Source of the DNA: an uncultured Eubacteriales bacterium
GTDB taxonomy: Bacteria; Bacillota; Clostridia; Oscillospirales; Acutalibacteraceae
Length of the DNA stretch: 36,740 nt
Direction of reading: 5' to 3'
NCBI GenBank assembly: GCA_964597515.1
Contig: CAZQXZ010000001.1
Coordinates: 1 to 36,740 of the forward strand
Each line of letters begins with the position of its first letter. Position 1 is the stretch's first letter. The notes below the pieces were generated by a model. That model was not told where the DNA came from. It saw only the letters and a list, made by a program, of their open reading frames with translations, and searched no databases. The position numbers were made by a program, and so were the translations under genes. Shown here piece by piece: positions 4,186 through 33,915 of this stretch.

Positions 4186-5850
4186 GTGTTTATGAAAGCG
4201 GTTCTGCTGACCTCTCTTGCCAAGGTTTTTCCCGACTGCGCTCCGAATTACGGCGAGAACGCGTCCGTATCCGTGTTGAAAAACGAGGGCTTTTCGTTTC
4301 AGCTTGCTTTTATGCCCGAGGTTTCGTCGGAGGAAGCCGTTGCAATAAGCGTCCGCTCGCCGTTTGGAGACGGGCTTTCTGCGTATCTCGTAAAAAGCGT
4401 TCCCGCCGGAAGAACATCATATGACGACAGCGACAGTTATTTTTTAAACAAAAACCGCAAAGCGTATCCCGACCTGCTCTCCCCTCTTTATAACGGAAAA
4501 TGTGCGGCGCAGCGCGATATGTGGACGTCCCTTTGGTTCAAGGTGTCGCCCGAAAGCGTAAACAGCGAAGGTTTTAAGAAAATTGCCGTAACGCTCAAGG
4601 CGGGTAAAAGCGAAATCAAAAAGATTTTTACGGCGGAGGTTATCTGCTCTGCCCTGCCCGAGCAGACGCTGCTTCACACCAACTGGTTCCATAACGACTG
4701 CCTTTGCACAAGATACGGCGCAGAGCCGTTTTCTCCCGAATACTGGGATATTGCCGAAAACTATATAAGAAACGCCGTAAACCACGGAGTCAATATGCTG
4801 CTTACGCCGATTTTTACCCCGCCCTTAGACACGGAGATTGGCGGTGAAAGACCTACCGTACAGCTTATCGACGTTGTGAAGACAGATGCCGGCACATACA
4901 GCTTTACCTTTACGAATTTCAGGAAATATGTGAAGCTCTGCTTGGAATGCGGCGTAAAGGCTTTTGAGATTTCGCATTTGTTTACGCAGTGGGGCGCCGT
5001 CGCCGCTCCTAAAATTGTCGCTTCGGTAGGCGGAAAAGAGGAAAGGATTTTCGGCTGGGACACAAAGGCCGGAGGCAAGGCGTATTACGCTTTTCTCCTC
5101 GCGCTCGCCCCCGAGCTTAACAGGGAGATAGAACTTCTCGGCATCAAGGATAAATGCTGGTTCCACGTCTCCGACGAACCGAGCCTTCATCAGATTTCTT
5201 CATACAGAAAAGCGGCTAAAATTCTCAACGAGCTTTTCCCGGGGTACCATACCTTTGACGCGCTTTCAAATATTGAGTTTTATAAAAAAGGTCTTATAAA
5301 AACCCCCGTGCCCAATGTCAATGAAGCCGATGAGTTTTACGGCAAGGTCGAGAATTTCTGGACTTACTACTGCTGCGGTCAGCATAAAAACTTCGTCCCG
5401 AACCGATTTTTCGCCATGCCCTCCCTGCGCAACAGAATTCTCGGCTTTCAGCTTTACAGTTATAACGCGAAGGGTTTTCTCCAATGGGGTCATAACTTCT
5501 GGTATTCGCAGTACTCCAAATTCCCGATAGACCCGTTCGAGGTGACTGACGCGGGCGGAAGCTTCCCCTCCGGCGACTCGTTTGTAGTCTACCCGGGCGA
5601 TGGCGGCAAACCGCTAAACTCTCTGCGTTTTGAGGTTTTCGCCGAGTCTCTTCAGGATATGAGAGCCTTACAGCTCCTTGAAAGCCTGTCCTCGCGCAGA
5701 TACGCGCTTGAAGTCTTAAACAGGGATTTGGACGCGCCGCTATCAATGACTGAATATCCGCACAGCGTGAAATGGTTTGAGGCTAAGCGCGAGGAAATAA
5801 ACCTTGAAATAAAACAGCTCAGTTCGATTGGGAGAGATAATAATGGCTAA
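4186..5850 (+). CDS. DUF4091-type (GH123-like) putative glycoside hydrolase
   Basis: 554-aa soluble protein 12 nt downstream of the MFS gene. Length and motifs (HTNWFH.DC, FTPPLDTEIGGERPT, WFHVSDEP) recall DUF4091/GH123 proteins from memory. The start could instead be ATG 4192. Confidence 0.6.
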   Translation: MFMKAVLLTSLAKVFPDCAPNYGENASVSVLKNEGFSFQLAFMPEVSSEEAVAISVRSPFGDGLSAYLVKSVPAGRTSYDDSDSYFLNKNRKAYPDLLSPLYNGKCAAQRDMWTSLWFKVSPESVNSEGFKKIAVTLKAGKSEIKKIFTAEVICSALPEQTLLHTNWFHNDCLCTRYGAEPFSPEYWDIAENYIRNAVNHGVNMLLTPIFTPPLDTEIGGERPTVQLIDVVKTDAGTYSFTFTNFRKYVKLCLECGVKAFEISHLFTQWGAVAAPKIVASVGGKEERIFGWDTKAGGKAYYAFLLALAPELNREIELLGIKDKCWFHVSDEPSLHQISSYRKAAKILNELFPGYHTFDALSNIEFYKKGLIKTPVPNVNEADEFYGKVENFWTYYCCGQHKNFVPNRFFAMPSLRNRILGFQLYSYNAKGFLQWGHNFWYSQYSKFPIDPFEVTDAGGSFPSGDSFVVYPGDGGKPLNSLRFEVFAESLQDMRALQLLESLSSRRYALEVLNRDLDAPLSMTEYPHSVKWFEAKREEINLEIKQLSSIGRDNNG

Positions 5851-8617: not shown

Positions 8618-8632
8618 AGCAATAATATTTTT

Positions 8633-8793
8633 GGTAGAGGCGCGGCTTATCATTATTAGCTGCCGCAAACCCCAAAGGCGGGGGCGGTATTTGAAAGGGA
8701 TAGTCGCCGAGACTTTCCGGAAGCCTTTTTCCGGAATGTCGGGACGCCGCATAAAATGCCGCGTTCTGTCACAGAAATGTGGAGCGCTATCAC
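8633..8793 (+). promoter_or_regulatory. Lysine riboswitch (L-box)
   Basis: GGTAGAGGCGCGG ... TTGAAAGGGATAGTCGCCGAG ... GGGACGCCGC ... TCTGTCACAG ... GGAGCGCTATC. These match the conserved L-box blocks of the B. subtilis lysC leader (AGAGGUGC, GAAAGGGGAGCGUCGCCGAAG, CUGUCA) as I recall them. Confidence 0.8.
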
Positions 8794-8804
8794 ACGTTAA
8801 AACA

Positions 8805-11394: not shown

Positions 11395-11408
11395 AACAGT
11401 TGCCAAGT

Positions 11409-11503
11409 AAATACAGGGGTGCTGATTAAAATCGGCTGAGATGAGAGCTATTAGCTTTTAAACCCTTAACCTGATGCGGATAATGCCGACGAAGGGAGTA
11501 TGG
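11409..11503 (+). promoter_or_regulatory. TPP riboswitch (THI element)
   Basis: ACAGGGGTGCTG...GGCTGAGA...AACCCTTAACCTGATGCGGATAATGCCGACGAAGGGAG. This is the canonical THI-box core (GGGGUGC, CUGAGA, ACCUGAU..GGAUAAUGCC..GAAGGGA). Confidence 0.85.
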
Positions 11504-11524
11504 AAGCAGCAATTCCAAAACCTA

Positions 11525-13862: not shown

Positions 13863-13892
13863 TTATTCTAACTTATCTTAACATATTCTAAC
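13863..13892. repeat. Three tandem 10-bp repeats overlapping the putative DUF1846 promoter
   Basis: TTATTCTAAC TTATCTTAAC ATATTCTAAC. On the minus strand, TTGAAA (13913-13908), 17 nt, TAGAAT (13890-13885). Confidence 0.4.
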
Positions 13893-13931
13893 AGTTTTAA
13901 GCCGCTTTTTCAAGGACTTTAAGGATTAAAT

Positions 13932-14536: not shown

Positions 14537-14719
14537 GTGAAGAAATACAAGCACATAAGCATCCGGATTGATGAAGATATTCTGAATAAGTTTCATTATG
14601 TGGCAAAATATGAAGACCGCTCTGCAAGCAGGCAAATTATGTTCTTAATAAATAAATGTATACGGGATTATGAAGAGGCTCACGGGAAAATTGATTTAAG
14701 TGAAATAAATCAACCGTAA
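14537..14719 (+). CDS. Small ribbon-helix-helix (CopG/Arc-like) DNA-binding protein
   Basis: 60 aa. The N-terminal beta-strand pattern KHISIRIDEDILNKF is followed by two helices. GTG start lies after GAGGGTG. AT-rich codon usage, unlike its neighbours. Confidence 0.6.
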   Translation: MKKYKHISIRIDEDILNKFHYVAKYEDRSASRQIMFLINKCIRDYEEAHGKIDLSEINQP

Positions 14720-24170: not shown

Positions 24171-24998
24171 ATGTTGAAGACGGCGTCAAAGCTCAAGCCG
24201 GGCGGACAGATTATGATGATTCCTCACGAGAACATCTATCCCAATCCCAACCAGCCGAGAATTCATTTCGACTACACAGAGCTTGAAGGCCTCGCCTCAT
24301 CCATAAGGTCAAACGGTATGCTCCTTCCGATTACGGTACGCACCGCCGCCGACGGCAACTTTGAGTTGATTTCAGGCGAAAGGCGGCTGCGCGCGGCAAG
24401 AATTATCGGTATGTCGAAGGTGCCTTGCATTATAATGGAGGCCACGGACGGGCAATCGGCGCTTTTTGCGGTAATAGAGAACATACAGCGTCAGGACCTT
24501 GACTTTTTCGAGGAAGCCACGGCGATTGAAAAACTGCTCAGCGAACACAATATGAGCCAGGAGTCCGTGGCGAAAAGCCTCGGCAAGGCACAGTCAACCC
24601 TTTCAAACAAACTCAGGCTGCTTCAACTCACCGAAAATATCCGCGACAGAATAAGCGACGCCGGACTTACCGAAAGGCATGCGAGAGCGCTTTTAAAGCT
24701 TCCCGACAACGCCGCAAGACAGCGCGCCCTGTCCATAATCACAGACAGACGCCTGAACGTGTCGGAAACGGACAAGCTAATATCACAGATGCTCAAAAAG
24801 AATGACGGTCAAAAAAAAGCTCCCGCCAAAACATACAGAGACCTGCGTATTTTTATAAACACGCTCAACCACGCCGTCGACGCTATCCGCAGAGCCGGAA
24901 TTGACGCTGACACCGCCAAAAGCGAGACGGATGAATACATCGAATACGTCGTCAGAATACCTAAGGTTGACGATACTGTTTACAGCCAAGCGGTATAA
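24171..24998 (+). CDS. ParB/Noc-family DNA-binding protein (Noc-like paralogue in the rsmG-adjacent position)
   Basis: ATG lies after AAAGGAGTGG. ParB box GERRLRAA and HTH region QSTLSNKLRLLQL. The C-terminus ...DEYIEYVVRIPK resembles the B. subtilis Noc C-terminus (..EEYIQLTIRIPK) as I recall it. Confidence 0.85.
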   Translation: MLKTASKLKPGGQIMMIPHENIYPNPNQPRIHFDYTELEGLASSIRSNGMLLPITVRTAADGNFELISGERRLRAARIIGMSKVPCIIMEATDGQSALFAVIENIQRQDLDFFEEATAIEKLLSEHNMSQESVAKSLGKAQSTLSNKLRLLQLTENIRDRISDAGLTERHARALLKLPDNAARQRALSIITDRRLNVSETDKLISQMLKKNDGQKKAPAKTYRDLRIFINTLNHAVDAIRRAGIDADTAKSETDEYIEYVVRIPKVDDTVYSQAV

Positions 24999-25056
24999 TC
25001 CCTTCGGGGCTTATATAAACAGCCATATCTTTCTCTTTCACACCCCACATCACAGT

Positions 25057-25088
25057 CCTAAGGGCGGCCGGAAACGGCCGCCCTTAGG
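25057..25088. other. Very stable GC-rich hairpin with GAAA tetraloop, downstream of the parB/noc-like gene
   Basis: Perfect 14-bp stem CCTAAGGGCGGCCG-GAAA-CGGCCGCCCTTAGG. No U-run on either strand. Confidence 0.5.
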
Positions 25089-25093
25089 GCATT

Positions 25094-25164
25094 CAGATGG
25101 CAGATGGCAGATATCAGATGTCAGACGTCAGATTTATAAGGAAAACGCAGAGCGTTTTTGGATT
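25094..25164 (-). repeat. Hairpin-plus-six-heptad element, copy 1 (minus orientation)
   Basis: Minus strand: AATCCAAAAACGCTCTGCGTTTTCCTTATAA + ATCTGAC GTCTGAC ATCTGAT ATCTGCC ATCTGCC ATCTGAA. It is homologous to 33826-33898. Confidence 0.8.
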
Positions 25165-25199
25165 GTAGTACAACGTATAGCTTTCACCTTATTGATTTT

Positions 25200-25215
25200 T
25201 GTTCCACGTGGAACA
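25200..25215. other. parS site (perfect 16-bp palindrome)
   Basis: TGTTCCACGTGGAACA, compared with the Firmicute parS consensus TGTTNCACGTGAAACA. Confidence 0.75.
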
Positions 25216-25334
25216 GAGAATTTAACTGGAAAACAGTAAATTAAGAGAGGGCTTGCGCCCTTGCCTGATTTTAATTGGGGTGCGGGGCGTTGCCCCGCCC
25301 ATAATTTTCCATTTTCAATTTTTAATTTATTTTT

Positions 25335-25350
25335 TGTTCCACGTGGAACA
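25335..25350. other. parS site (identical second copy)
   Basis: TGTTCCACGTGGAACA, 135 bp from the first copy and abutting the EF-G terminator U-run. Confidence 0.75.
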
Positions 25351-25400: not shown

Positions 25401-27479
25401 TTATTCCTCTTCTTCCTGTGCCTTCTTGGCTTCCTCGATAACCTTTTGCGCCACGCCCGCCGGAGCTTCCTCATAACGGGCGAACTCCGTTGAAAAATAG
25501 CCTCTGCCCTGAGTCACCGAGCGCAAAACCGTTGAGAAATCGCCCATTTCAGCCATAGGAACCTCCGCCACCAATTCCTGCATTTTCGGTTCGTTGGCGG
25601 GTCCCATTCCTAAAACCCTGCCGCGGCGTTTCGTTATATCGCTCATAATATCCCCGAGGTTGTCATCGGGCATATACGCCTTAAGTGTGCCGATAGGCTC
25701 AAGTATCGCCGGATTTGCCTCCGGAATGGCGGCCTTAAACGCAATTTGGGCGGCGGTTTTAAACGCAAGCTCCGAGGAGTCTACCGGGTGATAGGAGCCA
25801 AAGTGGAGCGCCGCTTTAATTCCGACCATCGGATAGCCTGCGACTATTCCTTTCGCCACGCTTTCCCTTAGCCCCTTTTCAACAGCGGGGAAATAATTCT
25901 TAGGTACCGCGCCGCCGACTACCTCGTCGGACGTAAACACAAAATCCTCCTCGCCTGAGTAAGGCTCAAAACGGATGTATACGTCGCCGAACTGACCGTG
26001 TCCGCCGGACTGCTTCTTATGGCGTCCCTGTTTGTCAACGACCTTGCGGATAGTCTCCCTATAAGCCACCCTGGGCACTGTAAGGTCTACCTCTACGCCG
26101 AATTTACTCTTCAGCTTGTTCACAATAATATCAAGGTGCTGCTCGCCGAGACCTGAAACCACCTGCTCCCTTGTTTCCTCGTTTGTGGCAAATCTGATTG
26201 TCGGGTCCTCTTCCATCAGCTTCTTAAGCCCCGAAGCGACTTTATCTTCCTCGCCCTTCTTGCGCGCCTTTACGGCCATCGAGAGGCAGGGAGACGGGAA
26301 ATCGACGCCTTTGAGCTTCAGCACTTCCTTCGCGGAGCAGATAGTATCACCCGTGTTAACGCCCGAAAGCTTTGTAAGGACGGCAATGTCGCCCGCGTTG
26401 ACGACAGACGTCTCCTCCTGCTTCGCCCCTTTTACAAAAAGGAGCTTCCCCATTCTTTCCGTCTCGCCGGTGGTGGCGTTATACGCCGGAACGTCCGACG
26501 ATATTTTGCCTGAAACAACCTTAAAGAAAGACATCTTGCCCACAAAAGGATCCGCAACGGTTTTGAAGCACACCGCGGCGAGAGGCCCGTTTTCGTCGCA
26601 GACAAGCTCTATTTCCTCATCGTTCGCGCCAAGCGCTGTCTCTTTCGCCGCCGACGCCGCCGGAGCTATCTCTGAAACGACGTCAAGTATCATATCAACG
26701 GCGTCGGGAGCGGTTCCCGAACACGCGAATACCGGATAAAGCTCTCCTGAGCCGACGCCGGCTCTAAGCCCTCTGAAAACCTCGTCGAGAGTAAGCTCTT
26801 CATCGTTAAAAAACTTCTCCATAAGCTCTTCGTCGGCGGAAGCTACCGCTTCCTTGAATATATCCCTCAGCGCGTCCGCGGCGGCATTCGAGGGGAGGGG
26901 AGTCTCTTTCCCCTTGCCGTTCGCGTATTCATACGCTTTGTTTGTTGTAAAATTTATAAATGTTTTTACACTGCCGTCCTCCATAACGGGAACGGTTACC
27001 GGACACACCTTTGCGCCGTATTCAGCTTTAAGAGCTTCAAAAGTTTTATAAAAGTCCGTGTTTTCCGCGTCCGTTTTCGTTATTACAAACATTTTCGCGA
27101 TAGAGCGGGAGTTCGCGGCTCTTACTGCCTTTTGTGCGCCGACGTCAAGCCCGCAACCCGCGGCCGTTACGATAATCACGCTCTCAGCAGCCCGCACACC
27201 CTCACTGACTCCGCCCGCGAAATCGAAAAAACCGGGAGTGTCTATAAGATTAATTTTCTTTCCTTTCCATTCAACCGGCGCGACAGCCGCGGAAATCGAG
27301 ACGCCTTTCCTTTTTTCCTCGGCGTCAAAATCCATAACGGTATTGCCGTCGGACACTTTGCCGAGCCTGTCCGCACCGCCAGAGACATAAAGCATCGCCT
27401 CGCACAGCGTGGTCTTGCCCCTGCCGCCATGCCCTGCCACCGCGATATTGCGGATGTTGCCCGCGTTATAAGCTTTCAA
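25401..27479 (-). CDS. Elongation factor G paralogue (EF-G2-type translational GTPase)
   Basis: 692 aa. G1 motif AGHGGRGKTT (a variant of AHIDAGKTT), G3 motif DTPGFFDF, and EF-G domains II-V recognisable. Confidence 0.9.
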   Translation of the reverse strand: MKAYNAGNIRNIAVAGHGGRGKTTLCEAMLYVSGGADRLGKVSDGNTVMDFDAEEKRKGVSISAAVAPVEWKGKKINLIDTPGFFDFAGGVSEGVRAAESVIIVTAAGCGLDVGAQKAVRAANSRSIAKMFVITKTDAENTDFYKTFEALKAEYGAKVCPVTVPVMEDGSVKTFINFTTNKAYEYANGKGKETPLPSNAAADALRDIFKEAVASADEELMEKFFNDEELTLDEVFRGLRAGVGSGELYPVFACSGTAPDAVDMILDVVSEIAPAASAAKETALGANDEEIELVCDENGPLAAVCFKTVADPFVGKMSFFKVVSGKISSDVPAYNATTGETERMGKLLFVKGAKQEETSVVNAGDIAVLTKLSGVNTGDTICSAKEVLKLKGVDFPSPCLSMAVKARKKGEEDKVASGLKKLMEEDPTIRFATNEETREQVVSGLGEQHLDIIVNKLKSKFGVEVDLTVPRVAYRETIRKVVDKQGRHKKQSGGHGQFGDVYIRFEPYSGEEDFVFTSDEVVGGAVPKNYFPAVEKGLRESVAKGIVAGYPMVGIKAALHFGSYHPVDSSELAFKTAAQIAFKAAIPEANPAILEPIGTLKAYMPDDNLGDIMSDITKRRGRVLGMGPANEPKMQELVAEVPMAEMGDFSTVLRSVTQGRGYFSTEFARYEEAPAGVAQKVIEEAKKAQEEEE

Positions 27480-32952: not shown

Positions 32953-33816
32953 ATGCCGGTTACTTCATTCACGGATATCTTTAAGGTTTACTGGTCTGTT
33001 CTTTGCGCTCTGATGCTTATCATATCCGGTGTGCTGCCTCTGGCTGTCCCCGAGGGTGCTGTTCTTATTGACACTCAAACCTTCGTTATGACGGACGCTC
33101 TCACACGCGCTCAGGGTATGACTACCGATGGGGAATACTACTATTTCAGCTCTAATTATTTCCTTATCAAGACTACGCTTGAAGGTGAAACAGTAACGAA
33201 AAACCTAATGGCAATTCCCGCCGACCTTTTGCTTCGCGGCTCGAACCACATCGGCGGGTGCAGTTATTACGACGGGAAAATCTATGCCGCCGTAGAGGAC
33301 GGGAGCGATTATCTTTATCCGTATATCGTGATTTATGACGCTTTGACCCTTGAATATACAGGACAGAGATATTTGCTTCCGCAGGAGCTTCATATCGACG
33401 GCGTTCCGTGGTGCGCCGTGGATTCCGACAGGGGATACCTTTATACCGCCGAATGGAACCACGCCTGCGCGCTCAACGTTTTCGACCTTGACACGATGGA
33501 GCTTGTAAAGACCGTTCCTTTTGTGGATGAATTGAATAATTTAATTGAGCTTCACCGTATACAGGGCAGCGAGGTGTACGCGGGAACTCTCTACTGCTCA
33601 AGCGATATCGGAGAAACTCAGCCCGTATATTCCGTAAATCCCGATACGGGGCTTGTCGCCGAGCTTTTCAACCGCAACCTCGGCGAAGGAGCTGAAGCGG
33701 AGGGGATGACTATTCTTGAAGACGCAAGCGGCGGATTTATAATAGTAACTATGGATATCGGGCAGTTAGGCGGAGTCCCCATAAACGTTAATATAAGAAA
33801 ATATGTATTGAATTAG
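32953..33816 (+). CDS. Hypothetical exported or membrane-anchored protein, probably beta-propeller-like
   Basis: N-terminal hydrophobic anchor. Recurrent G-x-T/S-x-DG..YY / G.LY motifs. I do not recognise a family. Confidence 0.55.
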   Translation: MPVTSFTDIFKVYWSVLCALMLIISGVLPLAVPEGAVLIDTQTFVMTDALTRAQGMTTDGEYYYFSSNYFLIKTTLEGETVTKNLMAIPADLLLRGSNHIGGCSYYDGKIYAAVEDGSDYLYPYIVIYDALTLEYTGQRYLLPQELHIDGVPWCAVDSDRGYLYTAEWNHACALNVFDLDTMELVKTVPFVDELNNLIELHRIQGSEVYAGTLYCSSDIGETQPVYSVNPDTGLVAELFNRNLGEGAEAEGMTILEDASGGFIIVTMDIGQLGGVPINVNIRKYVLN

Positions 33817-33825
33817 CCCGATTAT

Positions 33826-33898
33826 AATCCAAAAACGCTTTGCGTTTTTCCTTTAAATCTAATGTCTAATATCTAATATCTAAAATCTAAAATCTAAA
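33826..33898 (+). repeat. Hairpin-plus-six-heptad element, copy 2 (plus orientation), directly upstream of the fucI SD
   Basis: AATCCAAAAACGCTTTGCGTTTTTCCTTTAA + ATCTAAT GTCTAAT ATCTAAT ATCTAAA ATCTAAA ATCTAAA. The hairpin at 33832-33851 also serves as the terminator of the upstream gene. Confidence 0.8.
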
Positions 33899-33915
33899 CT
33901 TCGGGGGTTTTATTT

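What the first reader, a model, noticed from the sequence alone, without database searches (positions are those of the whole stretch)
25094..25164. Conserved hairpin + six-heptad element, copy 1: homologous to 33826-33898 in inverted orientation, with a concerted one-position change across all six units
The reverse complement of 25094-25164 aligns with 33826-33898. Both read AATCCAAAAACGCT(C/T)TGCGTTTT(T)CCTT(A)TAA followed by exactly six contiguous 7-bp units.
- Copy 1 (minus strand): ATCTGAC GTCTGAC ATCTGAT ATCTGCC ATCTGCC ATCTGAA
- Copy 2: ATCTAAT GTCTAAT ATCTAAT ATCTAAA ATCTAAA ATCTAAA

By my hand alignment, 59 of 74 columns match, including 29 of the first 32. The homology holds unit by unit. 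Only unit 2 starts with G in both copies, and units 1=2 and 4=5 within each copy. The RTCT core is invariant in all 12 units. Position 5 is G in all six units of copy 1 and A in all six units of copy 2.

Free microsatellite slippage would not preserve unit number, unit order and a concerted substitution. The pattern looks like an array of six constrained binding sub-sites.

Two established parallels exist:
- DNA level: contiguous 7-bp heptads (WATCACW) are the operator/centromere sites of the ribbon-helix-helix omega protein of inc18 plasmids. Re-registered, the units here read WRTCTAA / NRTCTGM.
- RNA level: the opposite strand reads (C/U)AGAYNN x6. These are NAG triplets with 4-nt spacers, the geometry bound by hexameric HutP. 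They sit 6-7 nt 5' of a hairpin plus U-run.

Copy 1 lies between the 3' end of the parB/noc-like gene and the two parS sites, so a role in a composite centromere-like region is also conceivable. I know of no described motif with this architecture.
Basis: partly seen in the sequence, partly recalled or inferred. Interest (0 to 1): 0.75.

Follow-up and report, generated by a model that had tools for sequence, protein, structure and literature searches.

The report
Dispersed hairpin-plus-heptamer-repeat intergenic module
The two copies are real and homologous, but they are ends of a dispersed, fast-changing intergenic repeat (a small hairpin joined to a slippage-prone 7-base tandem repeat) found in Oscillospiraceae/Ruminococcus gut and digester bacteria, not a fixed six-site protein-binding array or part of the chromosome's centromere.

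Summary
Two inverted, about 80-nt homologous copies (25092-25172 minus; 33817-33898 plus) each read TAYAATCC, a 7-8 bp hairpin, CCTT, then six RTCTRNN heptads.

The "six constrained sub-sites" reading does not hold.
- A sister genome (FucI 94.6% identical) carries both copies at the same sites, with 4 and 5 units and one broken core (ATTTAAA).
- A strain with 99% identical Noc lacks copy 1.
- Relatives at about 87% lack both copies yet keep parS.

A covariance model of the hairpin module finds 11 more copies in Ruminococcus contigs, with compensatory stem changes.
- There the hairpin is conserved, but the adjoining heptad array has quite different unit sequences.
- It usually forms the right end of a mosaic: purine-rich array, GC hairpin, variable core, this hairpin, pyrimidine-rich array, SD-ATG.
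- Window copy 1 is the right end of such a mosaic (25092-25328), which encloses one parS. Copy 2 is a short form that makes up the fucI leader.

Best reading: a REPIN/BIME/BOX-like dispersed repeat carrying a heptamer simple-sequence repeat, co-transcribed in UTRs. Any function is probably RNA-level tuning, as in the H. influenzae hmw (ATCTTTC)n leader. It is a new variant of a known but poorly understood kind.

The parts
25092..25133 (-). Copy 1 heptad array, six units on the minus strand: ATCTGAC GTCTGAC ATCTGAT ATCTGCC ATCTGCC ATCTGAA
   Evidence: The ortholog in L138 has only 4 units.
25134..25172 (-). Copy 1 right-module core: TGTACTACAATCC, hairpin AAAACGC-TCT-GCGTTTT (25142-25158), then CCTTATAA
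   Evidence: Covariance model R1 scores 43.4 bits at 25123-25172.
25200..25215 (.). parS site 1 (TGTTCCACGTGGAACA), enclosed between the right and left modules. It is not part of the repeat family.
   Evidence: It is retained in ADurb.Bin300-like relatives that lack the element.
25239..25277 (+). Second left-module-like unit: hairpin AGGGC-TTGC-GCCCT (25248-25261) plus tail TGCCTGATTTTAATTGG. It sits head-to-head with the next part.
   Evidence: Model R2 (built without window sequences) scores 20.6 bits, E about 3e-3.
25264..25306 (-). Left-module core: ATGG, GC hairpin GCGGGGC-AAC-GCCCCGC (25282-25298), then ACCCCAATTAAAATCAGG
   Evidence: Model R2 scores 23.8 bits, E about 3e-4, at 25269-25306. 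The terminator scan shows the hairpin. The L135 ortholog has a variant hairpin.
25301..25328 (-). Left heptad array (minus strand): AAATTAA AAATTGA AAATGGA AAATTAT. Four units here, five in strain L135.
   Evidence: TRF. Sequences.
25335..25350 (.). parS site 2, just outside the left array
25057..25088 (+). Strong hairpin after noc (a likely noc terminator stem with no U-run). It abuts the copy 1 array.
   Evidence: Conserved with compensatory changes in L130, L138 and L145.
33817..33856 (+). Copy 2 right-module core. It starts directly after the stop codon of ORF 32953-33816: CCCGATTATAATCC (palindrome GATTATAATC), hairpin AAAAACGC-TTT-GCGTTTTT (33831-33849), then CCTTTAA.
   Evidence: Model R1 scores 42.4 bits.
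33857..33898 (+). Copy 2 heptad array: ATCTAAT GTCTAAT ATCTAAT ATCTAAA ATCTAAA ATCTAAA. It ends 17 nt before the fucI ATG (33916), with the SD GGGGG at about 33903-33907.
   Evidence: It is predicted to be single-stranded. The L138 ortholog has 5 units. Logan contig L001 breaks inside the array.

Best explanation
The feature is one module of a dispersed, mosaic intergenic repeat family in Oscillospiraceae/Ruminococcus-type Clostridia. The family resembles REP/BIME/REPIN or BOX elements.

**Module.** A conserved short hairpin ((T/G)AATC-M-AAAACGC-loop-GCGTTT-CCC/CCTT) is joined to a tandem heptanucleotide simple-sequence repeat.

**Full element.** Full elements are imperfect palindromes: a purine-rich heptad array, a GC hairpin followed by ACCCGATT, a variable core, this hairpin, then a pyrimidine-rich heptad array.

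**Window copies.**
- Copy 1 is the right end of a full element (25092-25328) lodged between the convergent noc and EF-G-like genes. It encloses one parS.
- Copy 2 is a short form sitting between an inserted 287-aa ORF and fucI.

**Shown.**
- Homology of the two copies.
- Family membership by covariance model, with compensatory stem changes.
- Presence/absence polymorphism.
- Unit number that changes between close relatives.
- Turnover of unit sequence beside a conserved hairpin.
- A consistent orientation, with the pyrimidine-rich array just upstream of the SD/ATG.

**Inferred.**
- The modules spread by copying, by an unknown mechanism.
- The arrays grow, shrink and homogenise by slipped-strand mispairing, which would yield the all-G versus all-A position 5.
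- The modules are co-transcribed with their neighbours.
- At fucI the element supplies the leader: a 5'-proximal stem-loop followed by about 42 nt of unstructured, G-poor sequence that is stop-rich in all frames, directly before the SD.
- Unit number and structure therefore tune mRNA stability or translation in cis, as shown experimentally for the H. influenzae hmw (ATCTTTC)n leader.
- Copy 1 probably has no dedicated function.
For: **Homology and non-randomness:**

**Family.**
- The metagenome pattern scan returned 4 Ruminococcus loci with the same hairpin plus heptads upstream of unrelated genes: galE-like, htpG, rpsM and a secreted protein.
- Model R1 finds 15 modules in all.
- The stem has 3 pairs with changes on both sides. 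Its covariation score of 0.18 was reached by 0 of 500 shuffles, and slid controls score 0.04 or less.
- Left-module model R2, built without window sequence, hits window 25269-25306 (E about 3e-4), L135, and a goat-rumen Clostridia MAG.

**Lability.**
- L138 has 4 and 5 units against 6 and 6, and one unit reads ATTTAAA.
- L135 lacks copy 1 and has 5 rather than 4 left units.
- Both copies are absent in the Bin300-like and L145 lineages.
- The rpmJ-rpsM spacer of Ruminococcus strains with identical S13 carries six different mosaics.

**Transcription and orientation.**
- A 12/12 consensus promoter sits 7 nt upstream of the left array of the htpG element.
- That leader folds into an array-array stem capped by three hairpins, z = -5.1.
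- Every right module lying next to a gene start has its pyrimidine-rich array on the mRNA strand.
- The window arrays are predicted to be unpaired.

**Literature.**
- The hmw heptamer SSR works through a 5'-UTR hairpin and RNase III (PMC12721329).
- Heptamer SSRs are the most abundant long SSR class in bacteria, with polymerase slippage proposed as the cause (Mrazek 2007, as cited in PMC4679880 and PMC4692102).
Against: - No transcript data exist. Transcription of either window copy is inferred.
- The window copies have no inverted partner array, so the hmw-like long-stem mechanism cannot apply to them directly.
- No transposase, RAYT, target-site duplication or clean empty-site boundary was found, so how the module spreads is unknown.
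- Only two right modules were seen in 36.7 kb, and the rest of the source genome could not be searched.
- The shared fine structure of the two arrays (G in unit 2; a boundary after unit 3) is not fully explained by simple founder expansion.
- The R1 and R2 models are short and their E-values are rough. The alignment used for pair counts was fitted to the model.
Confidence: 0.55

Rival explanations
1. Neutral by-product. The hairpins are ordinary terminator-like or UTR stem-loops, and the heptad arrays are functionless microsatellites. Replication slippage generates them preferentially beside stable hairpins, and the two copies are a chance local duplication.
For: - Unit number and presence vary freely among close relatives.
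- Heptamer SSRs are generally over-represented in bacteria, with slippage proposed as the cause (PMC4679880, PMC4692102).
Many sit next to terminator-like hairpins.
Against: - The hairpin and its flanks are conserved in sequence across genera at unrelated loci, with compensatory changes.
- Orientation relative to downstream genes is consistent.
- Array order is inherited between dispersed copies: G,G,A,G at position 5 in L126, L128 and L129.
- The promoter/terminator scan does not call the hairpin a terminator.
Confidence: 0.22
2. Single-strand RNA platform. The contiguous pyrimidine-rich heptads in the leader are landing sites for an OB-fold or cold-shock-domain protein (one protein per about 7 nt), or another ssRNA binder, which keeps the leader open or controls translation.
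For: - Arrays lie immediately upstream of the SD/ATG on the mRNA strand and are predicted to be unpaired in the window.
- B. subtilis CspB binds heptamer units with one protein per heptamer, and Csp/S1 were proposed for the TAACTGA leader repeats (PMC4679880, section 17, citing Morgan 2007 and Sachs 2012).
- From my own recollection, not checked here: the CspB preferred heptamer GTCTTTG/T shares GTCT, with C at position 3, with the RTCT core.
Against: - Unit sequences differ widely between family members.
- Copy 1 is followed by no gene.
- Unit number is not conserved.
- No Csp gene is linked and no binding data exist.
- Across phyla there is no clear sense-strand bias: 26 versus 20 in a crude count.
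Confidence: 0.12
3. A double-stranded DNA operator or centromere accessory made of six heptad sub-sites, bound by an omega-like RHH or ParB/Noc-type protein. Alternatively, an RNA bound by a HutP/TRAP-like hexamer.
For: - Contiguous 7-bp units lie near parS.
- ORF 14537-14719 gives a weak, sub-threshold RHH_5 match (15.3 bits against a cut-off of 26).
- Paired arrays of five tandem heptamers (MTYCTGA) in G. metallireducens were annotated as putative global-regulator sites (PMC2700814).
Against: - Orthologs have 4 or 5 units.
- Copy 1 is absent in a strain with 99% identical Noc and in relatives that keep parS.
- The units do not match WATCACW.
- On the fucI mRNA strand there is no NAG-N4.
- Family arrays have unrelated unit sequences next to the same hairpin.
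- The context is chromosomal, not a plasmid.
Confidence: 0.04
4. The two inverted copies act together. Either they are recombination substrates that invert the 8.7-kb segment between them, or they form a trans antisense pair: a noc read-through 3'-UTR pairing with the fucI leader.
For: - The copies are inverted and 8.7 kb apart.
- Plus-strand RNAs of the two copies would form a -70.8 kcal/mol duplex, against -20.9 kcal/mol for the two folded separately.
Against: - Complementarity follows automatically from inverted duplication.
- Gene order is identical in all relatives examined, with no inversion seen.
- L135 lacks copy 1.
Confidence: 0.04

Closest known systems
Haemophilus influenzae hmw1A/hmw2A 5'-UTR heptamer SSR, (ATCTTTC)n (PMC12721329)
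   Same: - A tandem 7-nt repeat with an ATCT start and pyrimidine-rich composition, lying between the promoter and the start codon.
- Repeat number varies between strains.
- In full family members (for example L127 htpG) the pyrimidine array pairs with a purine-rich arm to form a long 5'-UTR hairpin.
   Different: - The window copies have no purine-rich partner and only 6 units. The hmw repeat needs at least 10-11.
- A conserved small hairpin module is attached, and the unit is dispersed to unrelated genes.
- RNase III dependence and phase variation are untested.
TAACTGA heptamer direct repeats of Beggiatoaceae, cyanobacteria and Bacteroidetes (MacGregor 2015, PMC4679880)
   Same: - Short arrays (2-6 units) of a heptamer, mostly intergenic and in forward orientation just upstream of start codons of unrelated genes, including ribosomal protein genes.
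- Indels between strains come in 7-nt steps.
- Function is unknown. S1, Csp and CsrA have been proposed.
   Different: - A different unit sequence and different phyla.
- No attached conserved hairpin or inverted partner array was described.
- Here the SD is retained downstream of the array.
Geobacter metallireducens paired sites of five tandem heptanucleotides, consensus MTYCTGA (PMC2700814, Additional file 9)
   Same: - Multicopy intergenic elements made of about five tandem heptamers, mostly in pairs.
- The unit contains TCTGA, as in copy 1 (ATCTGAN).
- Function is unknown.
   Different: - Annotated there as putative global-regulator (IHF/HU) DNA sites, without evidence.
- A deltaproteobacterium, with no evidence of homology.
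- I did not inspect the sequences.
REP/BIME/REPIN elements of Proteobacteria and BOX/RUP elements of Streptococcus pneumoniae (own knowledge)
   Same: - Short, non-coding, multicopy intergenic repeats built from hairpin modules, often as inverted doublets.
- Modular with variable internal copy number.
- Co-transcribed in UTRs, lineage-restricted, and polymorphic for presence or absence.
   Different: - No sequence similarity.
- The arms here are tandem heptamer arrays whose unit sequence differs from locus to locus.
- No RAYT or transposase partner has been identified.
Long heptameric SSRs (Mrazek 2007), cyanobacterial STRR, and Xanthomonas/Nostoc GGGAATC repeats (PMC4692102)
   Same: - Intergenic tandem heptamers, often as inverted pairs, varying in length and sequence between close relatives.
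   Different: - Those arrays are usually longer and more uniform, and some form G-quadruplexes.
- They are not tied to a conserved hairpin module.
inc18 omega protein heptad operators (WATCACW) and HutP/TRAP RNA sites (own knowledge)
   Same: - Contiguous 7-bp periodicity (omega).
- 7-nt spacing of a triplet (HutP).
   Different: - The consensus is not matched.
- Unit number is not conserved.
- The strand is wrong for fucI mRNA.
- No cognate protein gene is linked.
- The element is dispensable in close relatives.

Membership tests
Heptanucleotide simple-sequence repeat (long SSR in the sense of Mrazek) | Head-to-tail copies of a 7-nt unit, more than chance would give | tested here: met
   TRF reports period 7 with 5.9 copies at both sites. 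The pattern test gives 8 matches against 0.04 expected.
Heptanucleotide simple-sequence repeat (long SSR in the sense of Mrazek) | Unit number polymorphic between close relatives, in steps of 7 nt | tested here: met
   Copy 1 has 6 units against 4 in L138. Copy 2 has 6 against 5. The left array has 4 against 5 in L135.
Dispersed mosaic intergenic repeat (REP/BIME/REPIN/BOX-like) | The same non-coding module at several unrelated loci | tested here: met
   There are 2 copies in the window and 15 R1 hits in all, next to unrelated genes in Ruminococcus contigs. The copy number in the source genome itself is unknown.
Dispersed mosaic intergenic repeat (REP/BIME/REPIN/BOX-like) | Hairpin-forming modules, often as inverted doublets | tested here: met
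   The stem is conserved, with 3 covarying pairs. Full left-plus-right elements occur in L126-L129, L153 and L162, and in the window at 25092-25328.
Dispersed mosaic intergenic repeat (REP/BIME/REPIN/BOX-like) | Presence/absence polymorphism at orthologous sites | tested here: met
Dispersed mosaic intergenic repeat (REP/BIME/REPIN/BOX-like) | A cognate mobilising enzyme (RAYT/TnpA), or TIR plus target-site duplication | not tested
   None was seen in the window or the loci held. Whole genomes could not be searched. No clean insertion boundaries were recovered.
hmw-type 5'-UTR SSR riboregulator | The SSR is transcribed within the 5'-UTR of the regulated gene | tested here: inconclusive
   Copy 2 ends 17 nt before the fucI ATG. 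A promoter-like site lies at 33716-33743. For L127 htpG a 12/12 promoter precedes the whole element. There are no transcript data.
hmw-type 5'-UTR SSR riboregulator | The repeat pairs with a purine-rich arm to form a long hairpin that RNase III cleaves | tested here: not met
   The window arrays are predicted to be unpaired and have no partner array nearby. The feature is met in silico for Ruminococcus L127. RNase III cleavage cannot be tested here.
inc18 omega heptad operator | Heptads match WATCACW | tested here: not met
   The units read RTCTRNN in every register.
inc18 omega heptad operator | A linked omega-type RHH repressor, in a plasmid partition or copy-control context | tested here: inconclusive
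   ORF 14537-14719 gives only a sub-threshold RHH_5 match (15.3 bits against 26) and no NCBIfam hit. The context is the chromosomal gidB-noc region.
HutP/TRAP-type RNA site | NAG triplets at fixed spacing on the transcribed strand, in a leader upstream of a terminator/antiterminator | tested here: not met
   The fucI mRNA strand reads AUCUAAU. NAG lies on the opposite strand. The hairpin precedes the array rather than following it.
HutP/TRAP-type RNA site | Site number fixed by protein oligomer symmetry | tested here: not met
   There are 4, 5 or 6 units in orthologs.
parS/ParB centromere | Conserved together with parS in relatives | tested here: not met
   ADurb.Bin300-like genomes keep two parS sites with no element. 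L135 keeps parS2 without copy 1.
Intrinsic (Rho-independent) terminator | A GC-rich stem followed by a U-run | tested here: not met
   The scan does not report either hairpin. There are only 3 G-C pairs, and the T's are part of the stem.
Any Rfam family | A covariance-model match at the gathering score | tested here: not met

The most novel reading that the evidence does not exclude
The hairpin-plus-heptad modules may belong to an undescribed, actively spreading class of REPIN-like mosaic elements in gut, rumen and digester Oscillospiraceae. Their arms would be self-renewing heptamer arrays.

On this reading the arrays are made and homogenised by a mechanism tied to the hairpins. They act as strand-specific, length-tunable RNA leaders and trailers: purine-rich on entry and pyrimidine-rich on exit toward the SD. 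This would give strain-level rheostat control of many genes, including ribosomal-protein operons.
Probability: 0.18. Interest if true: 0.7.

Novelty: new variant of a known kind. Interest (0 to 1): 0.45.

Why it matters
If the family is real and active, it would be a REP/BOX-type repeat system for a large, mostly uncultured group of gut and digester Firmicutes.

- It would be a source of strain-level variation in leaders of core genes such as rpsM, htpG, galE and fucI.
- It would give a tractable handle on an old puzzle: why tandem heptamers are the commonest long simple-sequence repeats in bacteria, and why they cluster just upstream of start codons.

For this window specifically, the result removes a tempting but wrong link to chromosome segregation.

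Tried and rejected
- **Rfam** at gathering and relaxed thresholds on the window and on L126-L129: no relevant family.
- **BLAST** of both elements against plasmids and phages, and a module pattern scan of viral contigs: nothing.
- **Promoter idea for TAYAAT.** The consensus scan finds no promoter there. In the family this motif is 7 nt long (TACAAAT, TAGGAAT) and pairs with an upstream GATT(T)GTA, so it is part of a stem or tail rather than a -10 box.
- **Terminator idea for the small hairpin:** not called by the scan.
- **Cross-phylum orientation statistics on the 120 GTDB loci.** The count was 26 sense against 20 antisense upstream of starts. The crude ORF caller is confounded because the arrays contain stop codons in all frames, so I draw no conclusion.
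The source genome's other copies could therefore not be retrieved.
- **Considered from memory and set aside for lack of consistent fit across family members:** the SinR GTTCTYT heptamer, the Spo0A 0A box, primase CTG/CTA initiation triplets, Rho YC x6 primary-site ligands, integron attC, and IS200/IS605 PATE ends.
- **Coding potential:** excluded, because there are stops in all three frames within 21 nt.
Full report
**Observation**

Both copies exist as described.
- Copy 1, read on the minus strand of 25092-25172, is TGTACTACAATCC-AAAACGC-TCT-GCGTTTT-CCTTATAA followed by ATCTGAC GTCTGAC ATCTGAT ATCTGCC ATCTGCC ATCTGAA.
- Copy 2, on the plus strand of 33817-33898, is CCCGATTATAATCC-AAAAACGC-TTT-GCGTTTTT-CCTTTAA followed by ATCTAAT GTCTAAT ATCTAAT ATCTAAA ATCTAAA ATCTAAA.
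- TRF reports both period-7 arrays.
- The pattern (RTCTRNN)x3 matches only inside them, 8 times against 0.04 expected.
- The exact hairpin occurs only at these two places.
- Global alignment gives 57 identical of 74 columns. Homology ends at about 80 nt.
- The stated start of 25094 clips unit 6 by two bases.

**Context**

The window is the gidB-noc region of an Oscillospiraceae MAG close to "Firmicutes bacterium ADurb.Bin300".
- Copy 1 lies between the convergent noc/parB-like gene (ending at 24998) and an EF-G-like gene (3' end at 25401). Two perfect parS sites lie nearby, at 25200-25215 and 25335-25350.
- Copy 2 starts directly after the stop codon of an unannotatable 287-aa ORF. Its array ends 17 nt before the ATG of L-fucose isomerase, with the SD GGGGG in between.
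- No Rfam family matches. The consensus scans call neither a promoter at TAYAAT nor a terminator at the small hairpin.

**Orthologous sites**

This is the decisive comparison.

| Genome | Relatedness | Copy 1 site | Copy 2 site |
|---|---|---|---|
| L122, L124 | same strain | identical to window | not covered |
| L138 | FucI 94.6% aa, 90.5% nt | present, 4 units (ATCTGAT ATCTGAT ATCTGAC ATCTGAA), no G-unit | present, 5 units (ATCTAAC GTCTAAC ATTTAAA ATCTAAA ATCTAAG), one RTCT core broken |
| L135 | Noc 99% aa | about 150 nt holding the heptads, hairpin and parS1 are missing | not covered |
| ADurb.Bin300-like genomes | FucI 87% | no element; the noc-EF-G spacer is terminator-parS-21 nt-parS-terminator | no element; fucU abuts fucI |
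| L145 lineage | FucI 86.6% | no element | no element, although the 286-aa ORF is present |

- In L135 the neighbouring A-rich heptad array has five units rather than four.
- The element is therefore young and dispensable, and it is not tied to parS. Its unit number is labile.
- A Logan contig with identical FucI breaks inside the copy 2 array. This hints at heterogeneity within one sample.

**Family**

- A metagenome scan for hairpin plus heptads returned four contigs, all from Ruminococcus (R. difficilis-like). The same hairpin (AAAACGC-loop-GCGTTT-CCC) precedes 4-5 pyrimidine-rich heptads, an SD and an ATG of unrelated genes: galE-like, htpG, rpsM and a secreted protein.
- A covariance model of ten such modules (R1) finds 15 in the sequence held.
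  - These include variants with stems AAAGCC/GGCTTT and AACAC/GTGTT.
  - Three of seven pairs show changes on both sides.
  - The covariation score was reached by 0 of 500 shuffles and exceeds all slid controls. The caveat is that the alignment was fitted to the model.
- The modules are usually the right end of a larger mosaic: [purine-rich heptad array]-GG-[GC hairpin that covaries]-ACC(C/T)GATT...[variable core]...AATC-[this hairpin]-CCC-[pyrimidine-rich heptad array].
- A model of the left end (R2), built only from Ruminococcus sequences, hits three places:
  - window 25269-25306, directly beside the A-rich array at 25301-25328;
  - the L135 ortholog;
  - a goat-rumen Clostridia MAG, next to an RTCT-type array.
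- Copy 1 is thus the right end of a full element spanning 25092-25328, which happens to enclose parS1. Copy 2 is a short form in which the left-end tail CCCGATT is fused to ATAATCC.

**Array behaviour**

- Beside the same conserved hairpin, different loci and strains carry arrays with unrelated units: ATCTGTT, ACCATTC, ATTCCTC and CTGACCA.
- In Ruminococcus strains with identical S13 protein, the rpmJ-rpsM spacer holds six different mosaics or none.
- Units within an array are alike, while arrays differ from one another. That is concerted evolution of a tandem repeat.
- It accounts for the all-G versus all-A position 5 without six selected changes. A difference in one or two founder units followed by expansion is enough.
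- The G in unit 2 and the boundary after unit 3 do suggest that part of the array was copied along with the hairpin. Dispersed Ruminococcus copies behave the same way, sharing the position-5 order G,G,A,G.

**RNA level**

- In L127 a perfect TTGACA-16-TATAAT promoter lies 7 nt upstream of the left array. The whole mosaic is therefore the htpG leader.
- That leader folds into a long array-array stem, with one mismatch per heptad, capped by three hairpins (-55 kcal/mol, z = -5.1).
- Wherever a right module lies next to a gene start, the pyrimidine-rich array is on the mRNA strand. Between convergent genes, each incoming transcript meets the purine-rich array first.
- In the window the arrays have no partner and are predicted to be single-stranded, between the small hairpin and either the SD or the noc terminator stem.

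**Comparison with what is known**

- Heptamers are the most abundant long SSR class in bacteria (Mrazek 2007, as summarised in PMC4679880 and PMC4692102).
- TAACTGA heptamer repeats sit just upstream of start codons in Beggiatoaceae, cyanobacteria and Bacteroidetes. Their function is unknown, and S1, Csp and CsrA have been proposed (PMC4679880).
- G. metallireducens has paired sites of five tandem MTYCTGA heptamers of unknown function (PMC2700814).
- The H. influenzae hmw (ATCTTTC)n repeat acts as a 5'-UTR hairpin processed by RNase III and sets expression level (PMC12721329).
- The present element combines such an SSR with conserved hairpin modules in a dispersed, REPIN/BIME/BOX-like mosaic. 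I found no description of this combination.
- It fails the tests for omega operators, HutP/TRAP sites, a centromere component, an intrinsic terminator and every Rfam family.

**Verdict**

- The six-sub-site, centromere and HutP interpretations are not supported.
- The element is best read as a module of an uncatalogued dispersed mosaic repeat with heptamer-SSR arms. It is probably co-transcribed and acts, if at all, as a cis RNA leader whose length is tunable by slippage.
- Confidence that it is a dispersed repeat plus SSR is about 0.8. Confidence in the combined statement, including RNA-level tuning, is about 0.55.
- Novelty: a new variant of a known kind. Interest: moderate, 0.45.

Noticed in passing
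window 25011-25050 (+), just after the noc stop codon: A 40-nt block (TTATATAAACAGCCATATCTTTCTCTTTCACACCCCACAT, then CACAG) is almost invariant in every relative examined, down to 74% Noc identity, while the surrounding spacer diverges. In relatives it contains a DnaA-box-like ATCCACA. It could be a conserved 3'-UTR, sRNA or DNA site. Seen.
   Followed up: partly
L153-L162, positions about 4800-5000 (the rpmJ-rpsM spacer of Ruminococcus contigs): In strains with identical S13 protein the spacer ranges from 103 to 201 nt. It carries six different heptad-array/hairpin mosaics, which makes it a hotspot of strain-level variation inside a ribosomal-protein operon.
   Followed up: partly
L155 and L157 about 4815-4990; L129 1-623: A different MITE-like insert, with terminal inverted repeats TGTCATTCCGAGG...CCTCGCAATGACA, occupies the same rpmJ-rpsM site in some strains. 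Related copies occur elsewhere.
   Followed up: no
window 32953-33816 (+): This 287-aa ORF has no Pfam or NCBIfam match. It is inserted between fucU and fucI only in the window, L138 and L145 lineages. ADurb.Bin300-like genomes have fucU directly followed by fucI.
   Followed up: partly
window 25200-25215 and 25335-25350: Two perfect parS sites (TGTTCCACGTGGAACA). The number and spacing of parS sites differ between close relatives: two sites 21 nt apart in Bin300, one in L138 and L135. The repeat modules flank them, which suggests recombination or indels driven by the repeats or by parS itself.
   Followed up: partly
They occur in Bacteroidota, Acidobacteriota, Cyanobacteria, Planctomycetota and others. 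Many form inverted pairs or sit directly upstream of an SD/ATG.
   Followed up: partly
window 8627-8797 and 11405-11514 (+): Lysine and TPP riboswitch aptamers, both above the Rfam gathering score.
   Followed up: no
L125 3620-3698: A contig from SRR8655117 encodes the identical EF-G-like protein but diverges completely right after the EF-G terminator, with no parS. This is another structural variant of the spacer.
   Followed up: no
window 13864-13893 and 39-75: Short period-10 and period-11 tandem repeats (TATTCTAACA x3; TTTTTTTAGG x3.6). Their significance is unknown.
   Followed up: no
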